Below, piece after piece: positions 1-52,951 of a DNA stretch of 52,951 nt (positions are counted from its first letter, which is position 1; every line of letters begins with the position of its first letter). Both the position numbers and the translations under genes were made by a program. The stretch covers positions 3,270-56,220 of the forward strand of contig MQRK01189108.1 of NCBI GenBank assembly GCA_001938485.1, written 5' to 3'. This stretch comes from Girardia tigrina. Its lineage: Eukaryota. The notes beneath the pieces are model-generated. The model was given only the letters and a program-made list of their open reading frames with translations, ran no database searches and was not told the DNA's origin.

Positions 1-220
1 AAAGAGCGAAAATACGATAGAGACAAAACGAATATTTCATACAGGCGATAAAGTGTTGATAAAAAAAGAAAATGCTACAAAGGAAGAAGATCGATATATA
101 GGTCCAGCCACAGTAAAAAACAGAAGACATGAAAGAAGTTATGAATTGGAGCTAGAAGATGGTAGAATTTTGATCAGAAATGTGGAATGGCTAAAGCCAT
201 TTAAATCGAGGGGGATTTGA
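1..220 (+). mobile_element. 3' end of Gypsy/Ty3 LTR-retrotransposon pol (integrase C-terminal GPY/F-like region) with polypurine tract
   Basis: Frame 2 reads ...RIFHTGDKVLIKK...RYIGPATVKNRRHERSYELELEDGRILIRNVEWLKPFKSRGI*; purine tract GAGGGGGA (208-215) immediately precedes the LTR. Confidence 0.8.
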
Positions 221-810
221 GGAATATTTGGTGTGTGGATGTTTTTGTGTAGTTTTTGTATGTTTAAATGTTGTATGTTGATTTGGGATTGTGCCTCTCC
301 TAACCAGATGGATTGTCAATATTTAATTTTTATAATCTGAAACTAATTTATTTAAAGTTAGATTTAATATTTAAATTTTTAGTTTTTATTATTGTACTTT
401 TTAAATAATTTAAATGATTTTATTTTTAAAATCAAAACTTAAAAGCCAATTAAAAACGTTTATTAATTTCGACGGTTTAACCGTCATCGTCAGAACAAAT
501 GATTTTTCAAACGAAATTTACTTATATAGTGCAGTTAATGATTATGCAATTTTATTTTTGTAAATTTTTAAATAATTAAAATCAAATTAATGTTTAAAAA
601 TAACTATAAAAATATTTTATTTCAGCCAATAAAATTTAAAGTAAATATTTTTAAATAAAATATTTTTCTCAACTTAGTTCAGATTATAATGAGAGATATT
701 GAAAAATTGATTGATGGAATCTAGTGAAAGCCTTACTGTTGATCATCATAAAGATGATAAAAATTGTGAATGTAATAAATGTTCTGTCAAATGTGTGAGT
801 TCTCTTAACA
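216..810 (+). mobile_element. 3' LTR of the Gypsy element, carrying a 121-bp insertion
   Basis: Colinear with the solo LTR at 50835-51299 (T(T/G)TGAGGAATAT...GTGTGAGTTCTCTTAACA); follows the PPT. Confidence 0.85.
458..496 (-). ncRNA. Minimal type I hammerhead ribozyme motif (Penelope-type)
   Basis: Minus strand: GTT-CTGACGA-T-GACGG(TTAAA)CCGTC-GAAA-TTAA-TA-AAC; intact core, stem I GTT/AAC, palindromic stem III. Confidence 0.75.
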
Positions 811-1500: not shown

Positions 1501-1999
1501 CATTAATATATCCAATTTACCAAAACATTTTTCAAATTTAATTCAACATTATGTCCTACTGACGGAGATACTCGCCGTACATTAAAAAAAATCTGATACC
1601 ACATATTTCAGGTTACAGCAAATTATCTAGAAGCATAACTGTTTAATCCTCAGTGGTCGAATTACCACTCTAGTCACCAAAATCAAAATTAGAAGCTCTG
1701 TGGGTCAGCCACTAAAGGGAACCAGAAAAAAATTTACATGAAATAATGGTCGAAAAGTCATAATATATAAGCCATATTATATTTTTTCCTTATTAGAAAT
1801 TCTTTTGGTGTTAATATTTCTTTAAAAATTAATTTCGTCCCAAGGACAATGCTTTTAAATTCTTATACCGATCACTAAGGATTAAGTAGATTATATATCA
1901 AATGATATTAGATTGTATAAATAATCACAAAAATTATAATAAATTAATATTTTTATGAATACATTTAAACACCATTCAAAATTTTTATTTTAAAAAAAT

Positions 2000-3035
2000 G
2001 TGATTAATTTTGACGCATCACCCGTTATCATCATTGGCGCCGACTTTAGCTTCTATATTTTTTCCATCATTGAAGAAAAAATGAGATTGTTTTCTGGTAG
2101 CAGTTCATTGCATTATAAACGGTATGTAGATGATATTTTTTTAGTTTTTGAAAAGAGTGAGCATGTAGCTCCGTTTTTAAAATGCATGAATTCTTTACAT
2201 CCAAATATGAAATTTACTATTGAAGAAGAACAAAATGGTCACGTCTTTTTTGGACCTAATGGTATAAAGGAAACATAGGCATTTGAGACAAAAAATTTTC
2301 GTAAAAAAACGGATACGGGTTTATATACAACCCAGAGTAGTTTCTGTGAACCTAAATATAATAGAAATATGATAAAAGGTTTAGTTTTCCGATCGTGGTC
2401 TCTGTCATCTACTTTTTAAAAATCTGATAAAAGTATCAATAGGCTAACAAACTTACTAAATAATAATGGTTATTCAAAATCTTATATTGAAAGATTAATA
2501 AATGAAACTATTACTAAATTACTTGATAATTCTAAGAAAAATAATTTTAAGGTTAACAATAATTATTCAATTAATAATTGTCATTCCAATAATATCGATA
2601 AGGCTGATCAATTAAATAAACGAAGAATAGGTTTTGTTCTAACTGTTCCTTATTCGGAAGGGTCTAAGAAATTTAAAAATTCTATTAAACGATGTGATTT
2701 AAATAATTTACTAGGATTAAAGATTATTTCTCAAACATTCAAAAAAAGTAGTTTTGAGATAAATAATTTTAAGGTTCTGTGTTCAAAGTTTACAAATTAT
2801 TGGGAGATAGTTACGTGTGAAGCTTTATTAATCAGGACCCACAATCCTAAAATAAATGTTCAAGCGACAATTTCAACCAATTTATTAAAAGTATTTAATT
2901 AAAAAGCGATTACATAAATTGATTACATAATCACTGCTTCCATATCGATATACGTTGTTTTGATCATTATTTGTTTTGTCTGATGATGACGGGTGATCGG
3001 TCGAAATTAATCACATTTTTTAAAAATAAAAATTT
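2000..3035 (+). mobile_element. Degenerate, 5'-truncated Penelope-like retroelement (RT C-terminus, internally deleted GIY-YIG region, 3' end with hammerhead)
   Basis: YKRYVDDIF RT motif; MNSLHPNMKFTIEEE; RKKTDTGLY; C-terminal WEIVTCEALLIRTHNPKINVQ; frameshifts; homologous to 52240-52951 and 33445-33541. Confidence 0.85.
2977..3015 (+). ncRNA. Minimal type I hammerhead ribozyme motif
   Basis: TGT-CTGATGA-T-GACGG(GTGAT)CGGTC-GAAA-TTAA-TC-ACA; one G-G mismatch in stem II; about 75 nt downstream of the Penelope ORF stop. Confidence 0.75.
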
Positions 3036-3799
3036 TGAGTGGTGTTTAAATGTATTCTCAAAAAAAATTACCATTATTTTTAAATTCTTAATATTTTATA
3101 TGATTTTTATTATTTTAAAGTGTTTTTTTAATTTTGTAAAATACTTAAAAATAAATTATAAAATAATAAAAATTTTGCGCCCAGGTGGCATTTTTATTTT
3201 CTTTGAAAGATTTTTCATAGCTTGGTTCACTTTTATTTAGTGTAATTAATTGCTCTATCAAATATTTTGATGAATGAATATGGTATTTAGTTGGTCATAA
3301 AATGTTAAATTAACATAAGTGTCTTCAACGGTTAGGTCTAAAGCGAGGCTGATTAATTTTTTGAGACTTTGGATTCTTTCAATAGAAAAGGGAAAAACGA
3401 AATGCTTTTTTTTGTTTAAACAACACTATAAAATTATTCTTTTGTAAAATTATACATATTATAAATATATTATTTACCAAGAACGTTCTTGCAGTTTTCA
3501 TAATTAAAGGTAAGAGACACAAACATTTCTTAAGATCATATGTATCTATCAAAATAAGCAAAACAAATGAATTTATGCCAGTTGCATAAAATATATCATT
3601 ATGCTGGAAAAATAATTGTTAAAGGTGGGTAGATATTGCTCAGGTCATTGAAGCATTTTCTGCATTCGAAATGGTTGAAATGCTTGAAAATGTGATAATC
3701 TATAGGTAATATGTCTGGTGATTAAGGCGAGGAGATGAAATCTCATGGTCTAATTCCTTTAATAAGCTTTAAATATTGCTTTCAATTGTTTATTATCAA

Positions 3800-4832: not shown

Positions 4833-5111
4833 GTTTCCTGGCCTTCTTCTGCAGAACAAATCAATAATCTTAGTGCTCCGGTGGCAACAAAATTAATTTC
4901 AAACAAACTTTTTGATTTAGTTATTAATCTTCCAAATTACAAAACAAAATACGTTACTGAAAATTATCTAATTCGACGAGCGGCGATTGATTCTGCAACA
5001 CCATTAATAATTAATTTTGAATTAGTGAAGTTGTTAGTCGAATCTTTGGCCTACGTCGACTCGGTCACAACCGACTCACTTTTCAATTATCAAGCCGTGA
5101 CCTATACCTAA
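4833..5111 (+). CDS. CPS1: Terminal exon of carbamoyl-phosphate synthetase, CPS I/III type (MGS-like allosteric domain)
   Basis: Acceptor ttttttag| at 4832; VSWPSS...[46 protein letters not shown]...DSLFNY* matches the recalled vertebrate CPS1 C-terminus (VAWP...[36 protein letters not shown]...KSLFHY); stops here, unlike CAD. Confidence 0.85.
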   Translation, partial: [92 protein letters not shown]

Positions 5112-9022: not shown

Positions 9023-9050
<28 letters not shown>

Positions 9051-9053
<3 letters not shown>

Positions 9054-10709
9054 GGTGCCCATAAAGTCACTTGACATGTTTGAAATTTTTTTTTGAAAAA
9101 TCTGTGAATGCTAGCAAAGCAATTTATTAATAAAATACATCGATAGGTACTACCAAATTATGTTATATAAAAATTTTAACTTTTTATAAAATCTTTTGTA
9201 AGTAGTATATCGTAATTAAATTATGTAAAAATTTCGAAAATCGTAACAAAATTTGTAGAGCCAAACTTAATCGAAAATTCGTACATTAATTGAAACAAAA
9301 TAAAATGTTTACATAATTTGTTTGTCTGAACCAAATGTAGAATAATAAAAATAGCACGGTGCATAATTTTGATATATAGCAGAGAATAGCATAACAGGAA
9401 AAGTAACTTAAATTTTGTTCCACAGTTTTTGTATTGACAGTTATTGGTTTAGATTTATGAAGATGGTATTGACATTGAAACAAAGAATTCAATTGGTTCA
9501 ACTATATTATGCAAACAACAAGTCAATTACTGCAACGATCCGCTTATGCAGATTGCAGTATGGAATTCAAAACATTTGCTCAAAACAAGGGTTGACGAAT
9601 TTGATTCACAAATTTGAAAAAACAGGATCAGTTAAAGATGCTGACAGGAGTGGTCGTCCAAGCGTTTCGAAAGAAACGCTAGCTGAGGTGTATGAAGCAA
9701 CAACCAGAATTCTAGAATTAGATGCTCAAGGTACCTCAAGCACAAGAATCATTGCCAGAGATTTGAATCTTTCAAAGTCAACAATTTGGAATGTTCTTCG
9801 CACAAAATTAAAACACCATCCATACAAAATCTCNNNNNNNNNNNNNNNNNNNNNNNNNNNNNNNNNNNNNNNNNNNNNNNNNNNNNNNNNNNNNNNNNNN
9901 NNNNNNNNNNNNNNNNNNNNNNNNNNNNNNNNNNNNNNNNNNNNNNNNNNNNNNNNNNNNNNNNNNNNNNNNNCATGTTAATACCAAAAACTGTGTGGTA
10001 TGGGCTGATCAGAATCCTCACCGACTTCATTCACGACCCTTATTTTCTCCTAGAATTACCGTTTGGTGTGGTTTCACAAGTAATTTCATCCTTGGTCCTT
10101 TCTTTTTTGAAGAACAACGTGCTAATTGGACTGTTCACACTGTTACTGTTACTGGTGTTAGGTACCTGGACCTTTTACAAACATTCATCATTCCTCAACT
10201 CCAACAGTGGCAAGTCCTGCAAGAAACTACATTTCAACATGATGGGGCACCCCCACATAATACAATCGCGGTTCGCAGATTTCTCGCAGAACACTTTGGG
10301 AATCGGATTATTTCACGAAATTTTGACTTTCCATGGCCAGCTAGATCACCAGACTTAAATCCTTGAGACTTTTGGCTATGGGGGTTCCTGAAAAGTAAGG
10401 TCTACGCACCTGCTCCTGCAACACTTAATGAACTCAAAGAGCGTATCACTGCCTGCATTGCTCATATTAACATTGACATCCTTCGAAATGTTGTGGTTAA
10501 TTTTGCTGATAGAGTGATATTATGTGAAGCTCGTGGTGGTTCACATTTTGAAAAGTATATGTAGCATTTTTAATTAAAACTGGATATTTTTATATTACAT
10601 AATTTGGTAGTACTTATCGATGTATTTTATTAATAAATTGCTTTGCTAGCATTCACAGATTTTTCAAAAAAAGATTTCAAACATGTCAAGTGACTTTATG
10701 GGCACCCTG
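9051..10709 (+). mobile_element. Full-length Tc1/mariner DD41D (rosa/Visitor-like) element with ~120-bp TIRs, inserted in (TA)n
   Basis: TIR CAGGGTGCCCATAAAGTCACTTGACATG at both ends; transposase ~9463-10564; 41 residues counted between QHD and the final D of SPDLNP*D; premature TGA at 10364-10366; gap 9834-9973. Confidence 0.9.
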
Positions 10710-10720
10710 TATATATATAT

Positions 10721-11185
10721 ATCCATGAAATTTAGAAACCTACTTTTGAAGACTGTTTCTCAATCAATTTTCTCAAAACTTTGTACATTTACTCATTCTC
10801 GATGACAATAAATGATTGTGTGAAAATTTGATCAAACTAGGAAATCCTAAATCTCATTTTGCTAAAAAAACGTTTTAGGATCATCAACAAATATTTAAAC
10901 TGTATTAAATAGAAATGTTTTGGATTTTTTCCTTTCATGCTTTATAATAAATTTATTATGTTATTAGTAACTATTTAATTTCAAAACGGTGTTGTAAATT
11001 TTTTGGTATGAAATTTTCTCTTCTACAAAAGACTTTTAATAGTTATTAATAACATAATAAATTTAATTAAAAATGTAATAGTAATTTTCCCTTCTAGAAA
11101 AGATTACAAAAAAAATCTGTTGGCCAAGTAGAGTTCTATCCGCATAAAGAATGGATTAAAAAAATTTTTGATTTACTAGTTTTTG
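10721..11185 (+). repeat. Second copy of the dispersed MITE-like repeat
   Basis: Shares motifs with 3800-4500 (GATGACAATAAATGAT; TCTGTTGGCCAAGTAGAGTTCT). Confidence 0.55.
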
Positions 11186-13209: not shown

Positions 13210-14351
13210 ACATATTGCTGTTATTTTTTAGAATATTTACGATGCTAAATTAATAATGGAAAAAATTAAAATTCGAGCAATTTTCTTGTACGAATTTAAA
13301 CTGGGTCGTAAAGCAGCAGAAACGGTTCGAAATATCTATAAAGCGTTTGTCAACGGAACAGTTTCTGAGCGCACAGTGCAACGATGGTTCCGAAAATTTT
13401 CTGATGGAGATGAAAACCTTGAAGATGAAGAAGGTCGTGGTCGTCCAGTTGCTGTGAACAACGACAATTTGAGGACAATGGTGGAAACAGATCCCCGTAC
13501 AACAATCAGAGAATTTGCAGATGGGTTGGGCATTAGTCATTCAACTGTCCTGGATCATTTAAAACAACTTGGAAAAATCAAGAAACTTGATAAATGGGTT
13601 CCACATGATTTGAATAAAAATCAAAAGAACCGACGTTATGAAATTTGTTCTGCCAATCATCTTCGCAATAAAAACGATCCATTTCTTGATCGTATTGTTA
13701 CCTGTGATGAGAAATGGATCATGTATAAAAAACCGACGTCGATCTGCACAGTGGTTGGACAAAGATGAAGTACCGAAACACTTTCCAAAACCGAAACTAA
13801 CACCCCGTAAGGTTATGGTGACAGTTTGTTTGTGTGATGCTGGAATCATCCACTATAGTTTTTTGAATCCAGGTGAAACAATCACAGCGGAGAGGTACTG
13901 TCGTAAAATTGATGAAATGCATAAAAAATTGAAAACCCTTTGTCCGGGATTGGTCAATCGAAAAAGTCCCATCCTTCTTCANNNNNNNNNNNNNNNNNNN
14001 NNNNNNNNNNNNNNNNNNNNNNNNNNNNNNNNNNNNNNNNNNNNNNNNNNNNCATCCACCATATTCACCAGACCTCTCGCCAACGGACTTCTACTTTTTC
14101 AGGCATTTGTACAACTTCCTACGTGAAAAAAATTTCAAAAACCAAAATGATGCTCAAAATGCCTTTCAAGATTTCGTCGCTTCGAGAACCGATGCATTTT
14201 ATGCTGATGGAATAAAACAACTTGTTTCTTGTTTGCAAAAATGTATTGATGCCAACGGTTCATACTTTGATTAATAAACTTTTGTTTCTGTGAATTTACA
14301 CGTCTTTGAAGTTTGTGTCCCAAAACCGCCATTATTTTTCGACCAACCTAT
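13210..14351 (+). mobile_element. Mariner (DD34D, cecropia/Hsmar1-like) lacking its 5' TIR; frameshifted transposase
   Basis: WVPHDL, TCDEKW and HPPYSPDLSPTD motifs; +1 frameshift near 13730; right TIR CCGCCATTATTTTTCGACCAACCTA; highly similar to 46838-48016. Confidence 0.9.
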
Positions 14352-14549
14352 AATGTATATATATATATGTGTATATAATGTATATATATATAATCATATA
14401 TGTGTGTACACGGCTAGAAAGTAAGCTAATAAAAAGAATGAAATTAATTCTTATAAAAGTTTTATTTTAAAAACTTTTTCATTTGAAATTGTTAAATATT
14501 TGAGAGATATTGATTTAACAGTCATCGTCACATGAAATTAATTCCTTAA

Positions 14550-17175: not shown

Positions 17176-18033
17176 CTATTGAATATTCGGATGGGTCTGG
17201 TGCATTAGGATCGTCGACTGATTGATATTGGAGTTCATTAGCACTTGGTTGTTCAGTTGGTTGTAGTTCTGTTGAATTCCAGGAGAATTGTTGATGGGAG
17301 GAGCGACTATTCCAGACATTTGATCGATTTGTGAGTTCTGATTATAATATTGAGGAAACGGTTGAGGCATTTGTTGATGTTTTTGAGAAATACCGGAATT
17401 GGGAGGTATATTACAACCGATATTTGGCGGTACATTGGAATCGTGAAATGTTGGATGAGGAAGACTGCGAAATGGTTGAATTTGAGCGTTTTTAGGATTG
17501 TTCATCATTGACTGAGGAAATCGATTCATATTAGCGTGGGATTGTGGTAGACACTGTACATTATTATTTTGAAAAGTACTTATATAATTGGAGTTCCCGA
17601 TGTAGGAATGATTTTGTTGAAATGGTATTTTTTGAATCATATTCATATGATGCATGGGATCTGAATGCATAGTAGAAACTGTGGATTGTAAGTGAGAAAT
17701 GTTTTGAGGAATTGAAGCAATATAAATGGGATTATTCATTATTGCTCTTGGAGGTTTTGCTGATGAGTTCATATATTCATATGCCATGTTTGGATTTTCA
17801 GAGTTATGGTAAGTATATGTTGGTTGATAGGTACAGTTAGAGAGATTTTCAGATGGCCATTGGGGTTGAGGGTAATTTGCGTAGATATTCTTTTGCATTT
17901 GAGGCTCGCGCATGACAGGCACACCTTGATAAGGAGTATTCATATTCACAGAATCATTCTGACGCTTGGACCTTTTCCACAACAATTCAAAGGCCACTTG
18001 ATACTTAGGATTCGTATCGAGCCAATTTCTAAA
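17176..18033 (-). CDS. CBP: CBP/p300 terminal exon (second half of NCBD-like region plus Q/N/P/M-rich tail)
   Basis: Acceptor ttcttaatacag| at 18034; phase 0; FRNWLDTNPKYQVAFELLWKR then low-complexity tail; TAG stop at 17176. Confidence 0.75.
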   Translation of the reverse strand, partial: FRNWLDTNPKYQVAFELLWKRSKRQNDSVNMNTPYQGVPVMREPQMQKNIYANYPQPQWPSENLSNCTYQPTYTYHNSENPNMAYEYMNSSAKPPRAIMNNPIYIASIPQNISHLQSTVSTMHSDPMHHMNMIQKIPFQQNHSYIGNSNYISTFQNNNVQCLPQSHANMNRFPQSMMNNPKNAQIQPFRSLPHPTFHDSNVPPNIGCNIPPNSGISQKHQQMPQPFPQYYNQNSQIDQMSGIVAPPINNSPGIQQNYNQLNNQVLMNSNINQSTILMHQTHPNIQ

Positions 18034-18636
18034 CTGTATTAAGAAAACGCTTATTTTTTTACTATTATATACAATACATATTTATCGTTGAATGTGTCAT
18101 AATGTATCATAAAATTTTACTTACTATAAACAGAGTTATGATATAAGGAAATGATCAACTGCAACCAACAGTGTAAAATTTATTAACATTACTTTAATTT
18201 TCTTGAAAGAGAGAAAATGAAAATAAAGGAATAATGGTATTGTTGCTGCCGAAATGTTATTAACAACTTTCAAACATGGTTAAAACGATTATTTATTCCT
18301 CGGATAAATAAGAAATAAATTGAAGTTCAATTATTTGGAATGAATTGATAACAAAATATTAAAATATTTGATTTCCAAACAATTATAGAAGCTACTCATA
18401 AACTAGTAAATCAAAAAAAATTATATCCATTCTTTATGCAGACAGAACTATACATTGCCAAAAAAATTTTAAATAAAAAAATTATGTTAAAAAAAACACA
18501 ATAAAAAATTAAAAAATTTTGTTGGCCAAGCGGAGTTCCGCCGGCATGGATGTAAAAAAATATTGTTTTGATTTACTACTTAGGCTTTAATTGGTTTACT
18601 GGACTTTATTTATTTTTCAATTTATTTTTTACAAGC

Positions 18637-24649: not shown

Positions 24650-25310
24650 CTCTAGAATCACTCACTGGAATATATTATCTCCCTCCCCGTACTCACTGTG
24701 AGGAATATTTTGAATATTTGATGATTTGTGTTTGAATGTTCTGTGTTGATTTGGAATTGTGTCTCTCCTACCCAGATGGATGATTAATATTTTAATTCTT
24801 ATTATCTGAAAATATACAATGTTTAAATTTATTTCTAATTTAAAATAATCGTAAAATTTTAAATAAGTTAATTAATTTTATTTACAATTTTTAAATAAAT
24901 AAATTGAATTAATATTTTTCAAATAATTAATAATCATTTTAATTTTTAACAAATATAATTTTGAATAAATATTTTAACATTTTTATATAAATCTCCATTC
25001 ACTAAGATAATAAGATTAAAGTCATTAATTAATTAGACGGATGTCATTGTACGAAAGCTTTGACAAAGATTGTCCTGATGACAATCTAACTTGTTGTAAT
25101 AATAAAAATATTAAAAGTCATATTGGTGTACATAATACTCACCAAATTTTGCTACGTCAGAATTACTATTTATTCAATTCTATAAGAAGCGCTATTTCTA
25201 AATTGGGATTCAGGTTTTATACAAAAATAAAAAATGAATTTGAGAGCCGATTTACTTCAAAACAACCAGACTTTTTTAATCGCGGAATTCATTTGTTGTC
25301 TGTTTAATAC
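24650..25310 (+). pseudogene. Mariner transposase C-terminal relic split by a solo LTR
   Basis: HWNILSPSPYS before the LTR; YSPNFATS..YYLFNS...FFNRGIHLL after it. Confidence 0.6.
24697..25137 (+). mobile_element. Solo LTR (diverged subfamily) with 5-bp TSD CTCAC
   Basis: CTCAC|TGTGAGGAATAT...CATAATA|CTCAC; first ~115 bp similar to the LTRs at 216 and 50835. Confidence 0.8.
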
Positions 25311-33289: not shown

Positions 33290-33541
33290 GGTAAAATTTT
33301 ATAATTAAGAACGCCATTAAAATCAAATTTTATTGCAATATATTTCGGTGGATTTTCCACCATCTTCAGGCTGAATAAACAACAATTTTGCTGTCTTATA
33401 TATAGCAAATTGTTGATTATGTAAACATCTTGCGTAATAACTAATTAAATATTTTCAACAAATTGGAAGAGACTTGTTTGGACATTAATGGACGGATTAA
33501 GTGATTTAATCAATAATGCCTCACAAGTAACTCTTTCCCAA
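33290..33541 (-). mobile_element. 3' end of a Penelope-like element nested in the hAT (runs into an assembly gap)
   Basis: WERVTCEALLIKSLNPSINVQ, homologous to ~2802-2863; followed by a hammerhead motif. Confidence 0.75.
33330..33378 (-). ncRNA. Minimal type I hammerhead ribozyme motif
   Basis: Minus strand: TTATT-ca-GC-CTGAAGA-T-GGTGG(AAAAT)CCACC-GAAA-TATA-TT-GC-AATAA. Confidence 0.75.
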
Positions 33542-41880: not shown

Positions 41881-41919
41881 ACCTGATGATGGGATTATTA
41901 CTATCTCGAAACGCGTAGT
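41881..41919 (+). ncRNA. Minimal type I hammerhead ribozyme motif
   Basis: AC-CTGATGA-T-GGGAT(TATTACT)ATCTC-GAAA-CGCG-TA-GT; palindromic ACGCGT stem III. Confidence 0.75.
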
Positions 41920-46837: not shown

Positions 46838-48016
46838 TTACGTTGGTCGAAAAATAATGGCGGTTTTTGGGCTTTATACTTTGTTTATCTACTTTGATAT
46901 GTATATAAGTTTAAATGCATTAGTGTTAGATATTATTTGAAATCTTATGCCTAGCAGTATATTCCTATAGCCATTATTAACATATTGCTGTTATTTTTTA
47001 GAATATTTACGGTGCTAAATTAATAATGGAAAAAATTAAAATTCGAGCAATTTTCCGAAAATTTTCTGATGGAGATGAAAACCTTGAAGATAAAGAAGGT
47101 TGTGGTCGTCCAGTTGCTGTGAATAACGACAATTTGAGGACAATGGTGGAAACAGATCCCCGTACAACAATCAGAAAATTTGCAGATGGGTTGGGCATTA
47201 GTCATTCAACTGTCCTGGATCATTTAAAACAACTTGGAAAAATCAAGAAACTTGATAAATGGGTTCCACATGATTTGATTGAAAATCAAAAAAACCGACG
47301 CTATGAAATTTGTTCTGCCAATCATCTTCGCAATAAAAACTATCCATTTCTTGATTGTATTGTTACCTGTGATGAGAAATGGATCCTGTACGATAACCGA
47401 CGTCGATCTGCACAGTGGTTGGACAAAGATGAAGTACCGAAACACTTTCCAAAACCGAAACTAACACCCCGTAAGGTTATGGTGACAGTTTGGTGGTGTG
47501 ATGTTGGAATCATCCAATATAGTTTCTTGAATCCAGGTGAAACAATCACAGCGGAGAGGTACTGTCGTAAAATTGATGAAATGCATAAAAAATTGAAAAC
47601 CCTTTGTCCGGGATTGGTCAATCGAAAAAGTCCCATCCTTCTTCATGATAACGCTAGACCTTATATTTCAAAAGTGACTCTTCAAAAGCTTAATGAGTTG
47701 GGCTATGAAACCCTACTGCATCCACCATATTCACCAGACCTCTCGCCAACGGACTTCTACTTTTTCAGGCATTTGTACAACTTCCTACGTGAAAAAAATT
47801 TCAAAAACCAAAATGATGCTCAAAATGCCTTCCAAGAATTCGTCGCTTCGAGAACCGATGCATTTTATGCTGATGGAGTAAAACAACTTGTTTCTCGTTG
47901 GTAAAAATGTATTGATGCCAACGGTTCATACTTTGATTAATAAACTTTTGTTTCTGTGAATTTGCACGTCTTTGAAGTTTGTTTCCCAAACCGTCATTAT
48001 TTTTTGACCAACCTAA
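46838..48016 (+). mobile_element. Mariner (DD34D, cecropia/Hsmar1-like) with both TIRs; in-frame HTH deletion and late premature stop
   Basis: TIRs TTACGTTGGTCGAAAAATAATGGCGG / CCGTCATTATTTTTTGACCAACCTAA; ORF 47026-47904 with WVPHDL, TCDEKW, HDNARP, HPPYSPDLSPTD. Confidence 0.93.
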
Positions 48017-48233
48017 TAAATACTTTTAATTAAGGTATTTGTTACATAAAAAGCTATAATATTTAATATTTTTTTAAAAAATAAAATAAAAACAAAGAAT
48101 AATAAACAGTAATAATGAATAAAAGAATGAAATTGCAATAATGAATATTTTTAAGAATAATTTTGTGAATAATTCAGAATTAAATATTATAAAAACAAAT
48201 GAATAGTCAATGAAGTCATCAAACTTAACTCAC

Positions 48234-50457: not shown

Positions 50458-50710
50458 TATTTAATTTAAAATAAAAACTTATTTGGAAATAAAATAATTT
50501 AATTAAAAAACAATTGCAATAATTTTAAAATTTAAAAAAAAGGATTAACTAGATAAATGAAAATCGATTTTTTTAAATGAGAAACCAAAACACAAATGAC
50601 AGAAGTTTTAAAAGAAAAGCAGATGAAAATTTGTGTAAATTTATATGCAATATCATTCACAAATCTTGATAATTATGAATTCTCATTCGAATTTCGAAAA
50701 CGAGATATTA

Positions 50711-51840
50711 CAGGGTTTTTCATTCAGTTCTGACAATTTTCCAAACGGTTTTGACAATTTATAAAATAATTTTAAAAAATTAAAAAAATATTTTACTTTG
50801 TAATGAAAGATAAAAGATTTTTAAATCTTGTTAGTGTGAGGAATATGGGGTGTAAAATTGTTTTTGTAGTGTTTGCATGTTCAAATTTTGTGTGTTGATT
50901 TGGGATTGTGCCTCTCCTAACCAGATGGATGATCAATATTTTAATTCTTATAATCTGAAAATAATTTATTTAAATTTAGATTTAAATTAGATTTAAATCC
51001 AAATTTTTATTATTGCAACTTTTAAATAATTTTATTGATTTTATTTTTGTAAATTGTTAAATAATTAAAATCAAATTAATGTTTAAAAATGACTATAGAA
51101 AAATTTTATTTAAGCCAATAAAATTTAAATTAAATATTTTTTAATAAAATAATTTTCTCAAGTATTGTTCAGATTATAATGGGAGATATTGAAAATTGAG
51201 TGATGGATTATAGTGAAAGCAATACTATTGATCATCATAAAGATGATAAGAAATGTGAATGTAATAAATGTTCTGTCAAATGTGTGAGTTCTCTTAACAT
51301 TTAGTACAATTATATTGTACATGTTTTAAAGGAAATCAAATTTTATTAAATTATAAAGTTGCTGTTAATTTGATTTCCGGTCAGAAAAGGAGGGGAAAAA
51401 ACTCATTTAAAATAATCTGATAATTGTCTGGCAAACTCATTTACGGAAAACATTTACTTTTACTTCTCTATCACTCACAATGAATAGCTAACTTACATCT
51501 TAATTAGATTTATATGGGAATATGATTATGATAAAAAAGAAAGATAACAGCAACTATAATTTAATAGAATTTGTCAGTTAAACAGTTAGTTAAATTTATT
51601 CAAAAATGATTTTATTCAATTACAGATCGATGACATACTTTTATTTTTTGATACGTTGATTATTTTTATGGTACATAAATGTCTGTATTAACGAATTTCT
51701 ATATTTTACATAAAAAACCCATTTGAAATGAAATCCAAGCATGATTAAATTTTATTAGTTTTGTTCCTTGAGACCAAGATTCTTAGAACATAATGTTTAA
51801 AATTATTTTATAAATTGTCAAAACTGAATGAAAAACCATG
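50711..51840. mobile_element. TA-flanked MITE hosting a solo LTR
   Basis: TA|CAGGGTTTTTTCATTCAGTT...TTTTGACAATTTATAAAATAATTTTAAA and its inverted counterpart ending AACTGAATGAAAAACCATG|TA. Confidence 0.7.
50835..51299 (+). mobile_element. Solo LTR of the Gypsy family (465 bp, TG...CA)
   Basis: Colinear with 216-810; flanks GTTAG / TTTAG (4/5 TSD match). Confidence 0.88.
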
Positions 51841-51949
51841 TAATATTATTATAACTAGTATATATTATCATAATAATTATTATTTGTAATATTTTTTCTG
51901 ATTATTGCTTTACTAATTATTATTTTGATAATTATTTTCCTATCATAAT

Positions 51950-52239: not shown

Positions 52240-52951
52240 CAAAGAAAAATTACTGTTTCTAGATTTATTAATTGATAAAAAATACATTTTGAGAAAGAAA
52301 TTGATCGTAAGACAACTGATACTGGTCTATACACATCACCAGACAGTTTTTGTGAGTCTAGAGATGAGAGCAATATGATCAAAGGTTCGCTTTACCGTTC
52401 ACGCTCCCTTTCTTCTACTTTTATTAAGTCTAATAAAAGCATTGAAGCAATGAGTAAATTGATGAATAACAATAAATATTCGAAGTCTTTTATAGCGAAA
52501 CTCACTCATGAGACTTTAGACAAAATAATTGAAAGAGAACGAATTAGGACTGCTCAGTCTAACGAGACATTAATTCACCTGAGGATGAAAAATTGAAGGA
52601 TGACGTCGAGAAGGATCTTAAGATTGTAAATTCTTTCATATCTGGTTACACATTGAGCTTATCTCATTCTGAAGGATTCAAATGTCCAAAGAATTACATT
52701 CTTAAAGCAACAAATAATCTTTTAATTTTAAAAATCATTTCTCAATCATTTAAAGTTGAAAATATGTTTAGTAATAAATCTCCATTGAGTTTGTGTTCGG
52801 TCGTGATTGATCAGTGTACGTGTAGTGGTTGCAATGGCACAATCATCGCAGAGACTGCCCGCCATCTCTGCAAACGAGTGCAAGAGCGCGCTTATAGACG
52901 GGGCGAGAGTAATATTGCTGAGCAGAGGAGAACTTGTAAATGTGATTTGAG
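52240..52951 (+). mobile_element. Degenerate Penelope-like element (RT thumb and GIY-YIG endonuclease), continuing beyond the window
   Basis: LFLDLLI...RKTTDTGLY...NMIKG; VIDQCTCSGCNGTIIAETARHLCKRVQE (decayed GIY-YIG). Confidence 0.8.

What the first reader, a model, noticed from the sequence alone, without database searches (positions are those of the whole stretch)
417..559. 121-bp hammerhead-bearing insertion with an 11-bp TSD inside a Gypsy LTR; the empty site is visible in the same window
Seen: relative to the solo LTR at 50835-51299, which has one ATTTTATTTTT, this LTR has 428-548 inserted between two ATTTTATTTTT copies (417-427, 549-559). The insert carries a complete hammerhead core on the minus strand and shares TTRCATAATCA with the Penelope 3' ends at ~2920 and ~33420. 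Known: Penelope-like elements carry minimal hammerheads, and plant retrozymes are non-coding LTR-like elements with hammerheads. Inference: this is either an extremely 5'-truncated PLE or a tiny non-autonomous ribozyme retroelement. If the LTR was copied onward with it, it would be a Gypsy LTR/ribozyme chimera.
Basis: partly seen in the sequence, partly recalled or inferred. Interest (0 to 1): 0.72.

Follow-up and report, generated by a model that had tools for sequence, protein, structure and literature searches.

The report
Penelope retrotransposon stub inside Gypsy LTR
This 121-base insert is the end piece of a common Penelope-type jumping gene, with that family's usual small ribozyme motif, found in just one of more than a thousand copies of another jumping gene's terminal repeat; it is likely a one-off, cut-short insertion and is ordinary.

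Summary
In detail: a 121-bp insert (428-548), an 11-bp duplication (417-427, 549-559) and an intact minimal type I hammerhead on the minus strand. The retrozyme and chimera readings fail. The insert is 99-100% identical to the 3' pseudo-LTR of a young Penelope-like element (PLE) family: 1376 exact matches of its first 25 bases. In other copies it follows a GIY-YIG ORF end, with RT upstream. 5' ends are scattered (-765 to +58). Only 9 of 1376 were seen to break at this point, and one other is a stand-alone stub. Both junctions occur once in the assembly, against 1026 exact empty LTR sites. The ribozyme is antisense to the Gypsy. The insert's 3' end falls on the inner of two family-wide end clusters about 38 nt apart (the known PLE 'tail'). 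The hammerhead likely holds the PLE start codon, as in Anolis Poseidon. No intact parent was found in one piece, the cognate 5' LTR was not identified, and cleavage is untested. Side result: 19 of 20 inverted insertions pair one short end with one tailed end. The scan has noted such PLE stubs and hammerheads before on other DNA of this genome.

The parts
216..810 (+). 3' LTR of a Gypsy-type LTR retrotransposon, 595 bp with the insert (the family LTR is about 463-465 bp). Followed by TTAAC, the likely 5-bp target duplication of the Gypsy itself.
   Evidence: upstream on the same strand: zinc knuckles (PF00098, E 6.8e-7), weak protease and Tf2-like SH3 hits
208..215 (+). Polypurine tract before the LTR
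   Evidence: sequence; same tract before the LTR in L036
417..427 (+). Target-site duplication, left copy. 426-427 also match the element's next two bases (3'-end microhomology).
549..559 (+). Target-site duplication, right copy. 549-550 also match the element's two preceding bases (5'-end microhomology).
428..548 (-). 5'-truncated PLE copy: 3' pseudo-LTR only, starting about 25 nt after the ORF stop and ending at the inner (tail-less) end cluster
457..497 (-). Minimal type I hammerhead: stem I 497-494 with 460-457 (3 Watson-Crick pairs + 1 GU), CUGACGA 493-487, bulged U 486, stem II 485-481 with 475-471, GAAA 470-467, palindrome AUUAAU 467-462, predicted cut after A461 (AUA triplet)
   Evidence: cleavage not tested
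428..487 (-). Likely first 20 codons of the PLE ORF (ATG at 487-485, at the start of stem II)
   Evidence: in L136 and L145 the frame runs on through the tail into the ORF N-terminus
50835..51299 (+). Solo LTR of the same Gypsy family, with the empty site at 51038-51048
1950..3064 (+). Separate truncated PLE of another family, with inverted 84-nt arms and its own hammerhead (2980-3006). A comparison, not the parent.
33300..33541 (-). 3' end of a third PLE family (ORF end, pLTR, hammerhead 33369-33343). A comparison, not the parent.

Best explanation
The insert is the 3' pseudo-LTR of a young, high-copy Penelope-like element, present in one Gypsy LTR copy only, and it likely arose by a single target-primed insertion that stopped after about 121 bases. 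Inferred steps: the element's GIY-YIG endonuclease nicked the AT-rich LTR. The freed DNA end primed reverse transcription at the inner of two start regions inside the 5' part of the ORF, perhaps helped by a 2-nt match. The short cDNA was joined to the other target end through a 2-nt match, and filling the staggered cut gave the duplication. The hammerhead came along because every pLTR of the family carries it. It would be silent here: it is a lone minimal motif predicted to need a partner or protein, and it is antisense to the Gypsy. Shown: identity to the family, linkage to RT and GIY-YIG in other copies, scattered 5' ends, two 3' end clusters, unique junctions, orientation. Inferred: the enzymatic steps, the order (LTR first, PLE second) and the silence.
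For: Top 40 scored of 643 candidates are 99-100% identical over 117-121 nt. In 29 of 29 fetched loci (some the same place twice) the best copy continues upstream as PLE sequence. That sequence ends an ORF that is GIY-YIG in L066 (PF01541, E 3.4e-6) and RT in L072 and L090 (PF00078, E 1.8e-9 and 2.7e-11). L090 and L091 hold RT, endonuclease region and insert homolog (94%) in a row. Of 1376 exact matches to insert bases 1-25, 1301 keep the upstream G and 75 do not. Of the 74 besides ours, 66 still run on as PLE and 8 break here: 6 into an inverted PLE piece, 2 into flank. 58 resolved 5' ends among 94 copies run from -765 to +58. 3' ends of 161 copies cluster at 110-126 (65 copies) and 146-162 (61 copies); ours is at 121. 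Each junction pattern has 1 match, against 1026 empty sites, and none of 28 LTR loci holds the insert. Outer junctions of 18 of 20 inverted insertions share 11-17 nt (this includes microhomology, so it overstates TSD length). Published: AT-rich cleavage, two internal RT starts that explain the 30-40 bp tail, ORF start at stem II, ribozyme inactive without protein (PMC11167929); single min-HHR inactive in vitro (PMC4209133).
Against: No intact full-length copy was found in one piece: all long copies seen are broken or rearranged. One other stub (L229) has nearly the same two ends and a duplication, although it carries other sequence variants. Only 4 of 16 simple, non-inverted insertions, ours included, showed a repeat of 10 nt or more across the junctions, so clean TSDs are not the rule in that class. 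The filter misses breaks whose flank has G at that place. The cognate 5' LTR was not identified. No read-level proof of the junction was obtained.
Confidence: 0.94

Rival explanations
1. A tiny non-autonomous ribozyme retroelement (SINE-like or retrozyme monomer) with fixed boundaries of about 121 bp, copied in trans by the PLE protein.
For: A second stand-alone stub, L229, has 5' end 0, 3' end 118 and a 15-nt junction repeat. Nine of 1376 copies break within this 3-nt window. Animal non-LTR retrozymes derive from PLE pLTRs (bioRxiv 10.64898/2026.07.22.740005). pLTRs can act in trans (PMC3846280).
Against: 9 of 1376 (0.65%) is no more than the roughly 1% per 3 nt suggested by ends near this region (my estimate). 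Six of the 9 are inversion joints. No short head-to-tail array among 199 hammerhead copies in 169 loci; the one 309-nt pair repeats across an assembly gap. Neither end lies at the predicted cut site (86 nt from the 5' end). L229 has different variants, which fits a separate truncation.
Confidence: 0.03
2. A Gypsy LTR/hammerhead chimera that was or can be copied onward with the LTR, a step towards a plant-type LTR retrozyme.
For: The site lies about 200 nt into the 3' LTR, upstream of AATAAA at 628 and 654, so probably in U3 or R, which progeny would inherit (inference). The LTR is young (98-99% to relatives).
Against: Both junctions are unique against 1026 empty sites. The ribozyme is antisense to the Gypsy, so the Gypsy RNA would not contain it. 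It is type I minimal, whereas LTR retrozymes carry type III (bioRxiv 10.64898/2026.07.22.740005, introduction). The left terminus of this LTR differs from that of all 18 close copies compared.
Confidence: 0.015
3. An assembly artefact that joins two high-copy repeats.
For: The assembly is fragmented (255,254 contigs) and both parts are high-copy. No listed contig piece bridges the junction in four public runs (the table was cut, so this is inconclusive).
Against: An exact duplication of the target flanks the insert, and the LTR is colinear on both sides. The 3' end sits on the family's own end cluster. Overlaps at the joints are only 2 nt, far below an assembly word.
Confidence: 0.015

Closest known systems
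5'-truncated EN+ Penelope-like elements with pLTR and optional tail (Penelope/Poseidon type; PMC3846280, PMC8557442)
   Same: Single ORF with RT then GIY-YIG; strong 5' truncation; inverted 5' copies; pLTR that includes the first codons of the ORF (20 here, 12 in Adineta Pen2a); tail of 30-40 bp at one end; TSD of about 8-11 bp; nested insertion into other elements.
   Different: This copy is unusually short and holds no ORF 3' end. The clade (Penelope/Poseidon versus Neptune or Nematis) was not tested by a tree.
Poseidon of Anolis carolinensis, PAc (Frangieh et al. 2024, PMC11167929)
   Same: ATG at the start of hammerhead stem II with the cut about 26-27 nt downstream; AT-rich target; two internal 3' end sites that bracket the tail.
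   Different: End clusters lie about 54-66 and 90-102 nt into the ORF here, against a main start at 111-118 in PAc. The 2-nt matches at our junctions contrast with the non-homologous priming reported in vitro; in such AT-rich DNA they may be chance.
Minimal hammerheads of metazoan PLEs (Cervera and De la Pena 2014, PMC4209133)
   Same: Type I; full core; bulged base before stem II; G10.1-C11.1; short stem I; palindromic stem III.
   Different: Stem II is 5-6 bp rather than the 7-8 bp of Schistosoma motifs. Activity is untested here.
Retrozymes: plant LTR type and animal non-LTR type (bioRxiv 10.64898/2026.07.22.740005)
   Same: Short, non-coding on its own, carries a hammerhead; animal retrozymes share the pLTR origin.
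   Different: No tandem units, no fixed boundaries, no hammerhead in two LTRs, no type III fold, no sign of spreading as a unit.

Membership tests
EN+ Penelope-like element (truncated copy) | Sequence belongs to an element with an RT domain | tested here: met
   PF00078 in L072 and L090, in a row with the insert homolog in L090 and L091
EN+ Penelope-like element (truncated copy) | C-terminal GIY-YIG endonuclease directly upstream of the pLTR | tested here: met
   PF01541 in L066; the same ORF end precedes the insert in other copies
EN+ Penelope-like element (truncated copy) | pLTR holds the ORF start and a hammerhead | tested here: met
   frame from the stem II ATG runs into the N-terminus in L136 and L145; use of this ATG is inferred
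EN+ Penelope-like element (truncated copy) | Variable 5' truncation, inverted copies, optional 30-40 bp tail | tested here: met
EN+ Penelope-like element (truncated copy) | Intact autonomous copy with one uninterrupted ORF | tested here: inconclusive
   only broken or rearranged long copies among those fetched
EN+ Penelope-like element (truncated copy) | RT groups with the Penelope/Poseidon clade in a tree | not tested
   no reference RT set was fetched
Minimal type I hammerhead | Core CUGANGA...GAAA...UH, stems I and II, palindromic stem III | tested here: met
   five window motifs: 83.6% of cells paired against 64.1 +/- 4.6 shuffled (0 of 500), 8 of 11 pairs with two-sided change
Minimal type I hammerhead | Self-cleavage | not testable with these tools
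   only stem II forms in the predicted fold; the palindrome duplex is -0.2 kcal/mol and the predicted dimer is not the active fold
Animal non-LTR retrozyme | Tandem units, each with a hammerhead | tested here: not met
   single unit here; no short array among 199 copies in 169 loci
Animal non-LTR retrozyme | Fixed unit boundaries across copies | tested here: not met
Animal non-LTR retrozyme | Circular RNA in cells | not testable with these tools
   only assembled contigs were laid
Plant-type LTR retrozyme | Type III hammerhead in both LTRs of a spreading non-coding element | tested here: not met
   type I, antisense, one LTR copy only; the host element has gag and pol remnants

The most novel reading that the evidence does not exclude
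The family behind this stub obeys a strict one-tail rule: 19 of 20 inverted insertions join one short end and one tailed end (about 2e-5 if the two ends were drawn independently at even odds). This would mean that both nicked target strands prime on one RNA at two fixed sites about 38 nt apart, a PLE form of twin priming, and that this 121-bp stub is the product when only the inner site primes. The family would then be a genomic test set for how PLE inverted ends and tails arise.
Probability: 0.35. Interest if true: 0.45.

Novelty: new member of a known kind. Interest (0 to 1): 0.1.

Why it matters
As a locus it matters little: it is a clean example of a truncated Penelope copy nested in a Gypsy LTR, with the empty site at hand. 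It shows how a hammerhead can come to lie in an LTR by accident, but with no sign of spread or function. The more useful by-product is the family: over a thousand young copies with two sharp 3' end clusters and a near-strict pairing of short and tailed ends, which bear on the open question of how PLE inverted repeats and tails form.

Tried and rejected
Rfam scan of the window: no hammerhead hit, one chance microRNA hit. Folding z-scores give no support: -0.32 for the insert, -0.15 for the core. The loose core pattern alone is near chance. The PLE ends at 2920 and 33420 as parents: rejected at about 71% identity. Search for the cognate 5' LTR: the contig begins inside gag. Six LTR starts preceded by the same 5 bases were found: two are one solo LTR present twice, three are diverged or fragmentary, and L250 matches 111 of 112 bases but its contig ends before the insertion site and its flank is another integrase, so no link could be made. 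Junction in public runs: four runs laid on 505-592; no listed piece bridges it, but 1260 pieces were not shown, so no verdict. The first lay shows the empty form in contigs of X1, X2, X4 and X6, as expected from other LTR copies. First 30 pattern loci: most 5' ends ran into contig ends and were dropped; one search keeps 58 of 94 copies for that reason. In one search the longest repeat scored for our own locus is a chance LTR repeat, not the TSD. Intact parent: not found among loci. Literature searches: 'Penelope' with 'twin priming' gave 3 papers, none on PLE mechanism by title or abstract start; 'hammerhead', 'LTR retrotransposon', 'nested insertion', 'Penelope' gave 1 pipeline paper. Subscription papers are not in that library, and no supplements were read.

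Full report
Observation. The LTR at 216-810 differs from the solo LTR at 50835-51299 by a 132-base gap: 121 inserted bases (428-548) and a second copy of ATTTTATTTTT. On the minus strand the insert holds a full hammerhead: stem I 497-494 with 460-457, CUGACGA 493-487, a bulged U, stem II 485-481 with 475-471, GAAA, the palindrome AUUAAU and a predicted cut after A461. The loose core pattern is near chance (7 found, 3.06 expected, 3 of 100 shuffles reach 7). The full descriptor is not: 4 matches in the window, 0 in each of 200 Markov controls (the motif at 2980 narrowly fails it). The five hammerhead-like motifs of the window covary: 83.6% of cells paired against 64.1 +/- 4.6 shuffled, 8 of 11 pairs changed on both sides (five sequences only, structure named by me). 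Rfam does not detect them, and only stem II appears in predicted folds.

What the insert is. The window lies in a 1.43-Gb assembly. The insert has 643 candidates there; the 40 scored are 99-100% identical over 117-121 bases. A 28-mer from its 3' half has 408 exact matches, and its first 25 bases have 1376. In 29 of 29 other loci the best copy goes on upstream into the end of an ORF. That ORF scores as GIY-YIG (L066) and, further upstream, as reverse transcriptase (L072, L090). L090 and L091 hold these parts and a 94% insert homolog in a row. The insert is therefore the 3' pseudo-LTR of an endonuclease-bearing Penelope-like element. [quoted passage not shown] In L136 and L145 the same frame continues through the tail into the N-terminal region, as described for Anolis Poseidon (PMC11167929). 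No intact copy was found in one piece. The PLE ends at 2920 and 33420 are other families (81 of 114 and 79 of 111 aligned bases).

Are the boundaries fixed? No. Of 1376 copies, 1301 keep the G three bases upstream of the insert and 75 do not. All 74 besides ours were fetched: 66 run on as PLE with a point change or small deletion, and 8 break here. By inspection six of the eight join an inverted PLE piece. L235 joins flank but lacks the 3' part, and L229 is a second stand-alone stub with other variants. The filter misses breaks whose flank has G at that place. Among 94 copies from three sets, 58 had a resolved 5' end (36 dropped at contig ends or gaps). These spread from -765 to +58, and none of the 40 from the two sets not chosen for this break lies within 15 bases of ours. 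The 3' ends of 161 distinct copies form two clusters, 110-126 (65) and 146-162 (61), with 13 beyond 162, 13 before 110 and 9 between. The gap of about 38 nt matches the 30-40 bp PLE tail (PMC3846280, PMC8557442), which PMC11167929 traces to two internal RT start sites. Ours ends in the inner cluster. No short tandem array was seen among 199 hammerhead copies in 169 loci, nor at the insert.

Was the LTR copied onward with it? No sign. Each junction pattern matches once, at this place; the exact empty site matches 1026 times. Of 40 scored LTR candidates only this one spans the insert, and none of 28 fetched loci (some the same place twice) holds it; most are 98-99% alike. Most are solo LTRs with 5-bp duplications; three are followed by a primer-binding-like site and one follows a pol end. 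The Gypsy reads on the plus strand (most of its internal region reads N), so its RNA would carry the reverse complement of the ribozyme. The cognate 5' LTR is off the contig and could not be linked. Public runs did not settle the junction.

Mechanism. Shown: family identity, domain linkage, end distributions, uniqueness, orientation, and 2-nt matches between element and target at both junctions. Inferred from the PLE literature: endonuclease nicking of AT-rich DNA, priming at the inner internal site, early stop, joining by microhomology and fill-in of the stagger. Outer junctions of 18 of 20 inverted insertions share 11-17 nt, in line with the duplication here. Simple insertions show such repeats less often: 4 of 16 reach 10 nt or more, against 5 of 240 mismatched controls. 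The ribozyme is likely silent at this locus: single minimal motifs showed no cleavage in vitro (PMC4209133), the PAc motif needed protein (PMC11167929), and the palindrome duplex is only -0.2 kcal/mol.

Side result. In 20 distinct inverted insertions, 19 pair a short end with a tailed end and 1 pairs two tailed ends; 21/2^20, about 2e-5, at even odds (my arithmetic). A tail at one end only is described (PMC8557442, figure legend and text; PMC3846280), so the pattern is known in words. The twin-priming reading is my inference; the search did not show it for PLEs. PMC11167929 reports extension of both strands but no strand difference in start site, and PMC3846280 prefers self-priming on an antisense template.

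Papers seen. PMC11167929: parts 1-2 of 4 of the text. PMC4209133: parts 1-2 of 4. bioRxiv 10.64898/2026.07.22.740005: part 1 of 5 and passages. PMC3846280 and PMC8557442: passages. All others: search listings only. No supplements were read; they may hold end counts that bear on the side result. Hammerhead numbering, the AUA triplet as a usable site, U3/R inheritance and L1 twin priming are recalled and come from no call. Earlier notes of this scan on the same genome reach the same kind of verdict for other pieces; they were read after and are not counted as support.

Verdict. Real, well formed and ordinary: a one-off truncated Penelope copy nested in a Gypsy LTR. Confidence 0.94, interest 0.10.

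Noticed in passing
loci L006, L007, L010, L011, L013, L015, L017, L019, L026, L066, L068, L071, L075, L083, L131, L162, L164, L180, L202, L238: 19 of 20 inverted insertions of this PLE family have one short and one tailed 3' end.
   Followed up: partly
L229 (G000:C233988:620-1220): Second stand-alone stub with almost the same two ends, a 15-nt junction repeat and a short filler at the 5' joint.
   Followed up: partly
window 41883-41911 (+) and 42074-42047 (-): Two more hammerheads facing each other, with different stem III palindromes (ACGCGT, ACATGT). All five motifs in the window have a perfect 6-nt palindrome.
   Followed up: partly
window 1950-3064: Truncated PLE of another family (RT end, endonuclease remnant, hammerhead) with inverted 84-nt arms.
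   Followed up: partly
window 52279-52949 (-): ORF pieces that resemble the same PLE region by eye, likely a further decayed PLE.
   Followed up: no
window 17176-49145 (-): Exons of a CBP/p300 gene: bromodomain, PHD, KAT11 HAT, ZZ, TAZ. The glutamine-rich frame at 17176-18081 is assigned by eye.
   Followed up: partly
window 4833-5111 (+): MGS-like domain (E 3.5e-4, below the curated cut-off), possibly the last exon of a carbamoyl-phosphate synthetase gene; the Gypsy may lie in its intron.
   Followed up: no
window 13210-14377 and 46980-48042; 9038-10722: Two mariner-like copies 93-99% alike, and a transposase-like frame between 154-nt inverted arms; names assigned by eye.
   Followed up: no
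window 50705-50759 and 51792-51846: Inverted arms enclose the solo LTR, which may have landed in a small DNA element.
   Followed up: no
window about 24700-24975: A third, diverged copy of the LTR (73-75%).
   Followed up: no
window 216-217: The left terminus of this LTR differs from that of all 18 close copies compared.
   Followed up: partly
window 216-810, public runs X3-X18: About half of the sampled words are held by runs labelled as other organisms or as environmental samples. Four such runs were laid and hold LTR and PLE pieces (X4, X6, X8). Relatives, shared elements or mixed samples were not told apart.
   Followed up: partly
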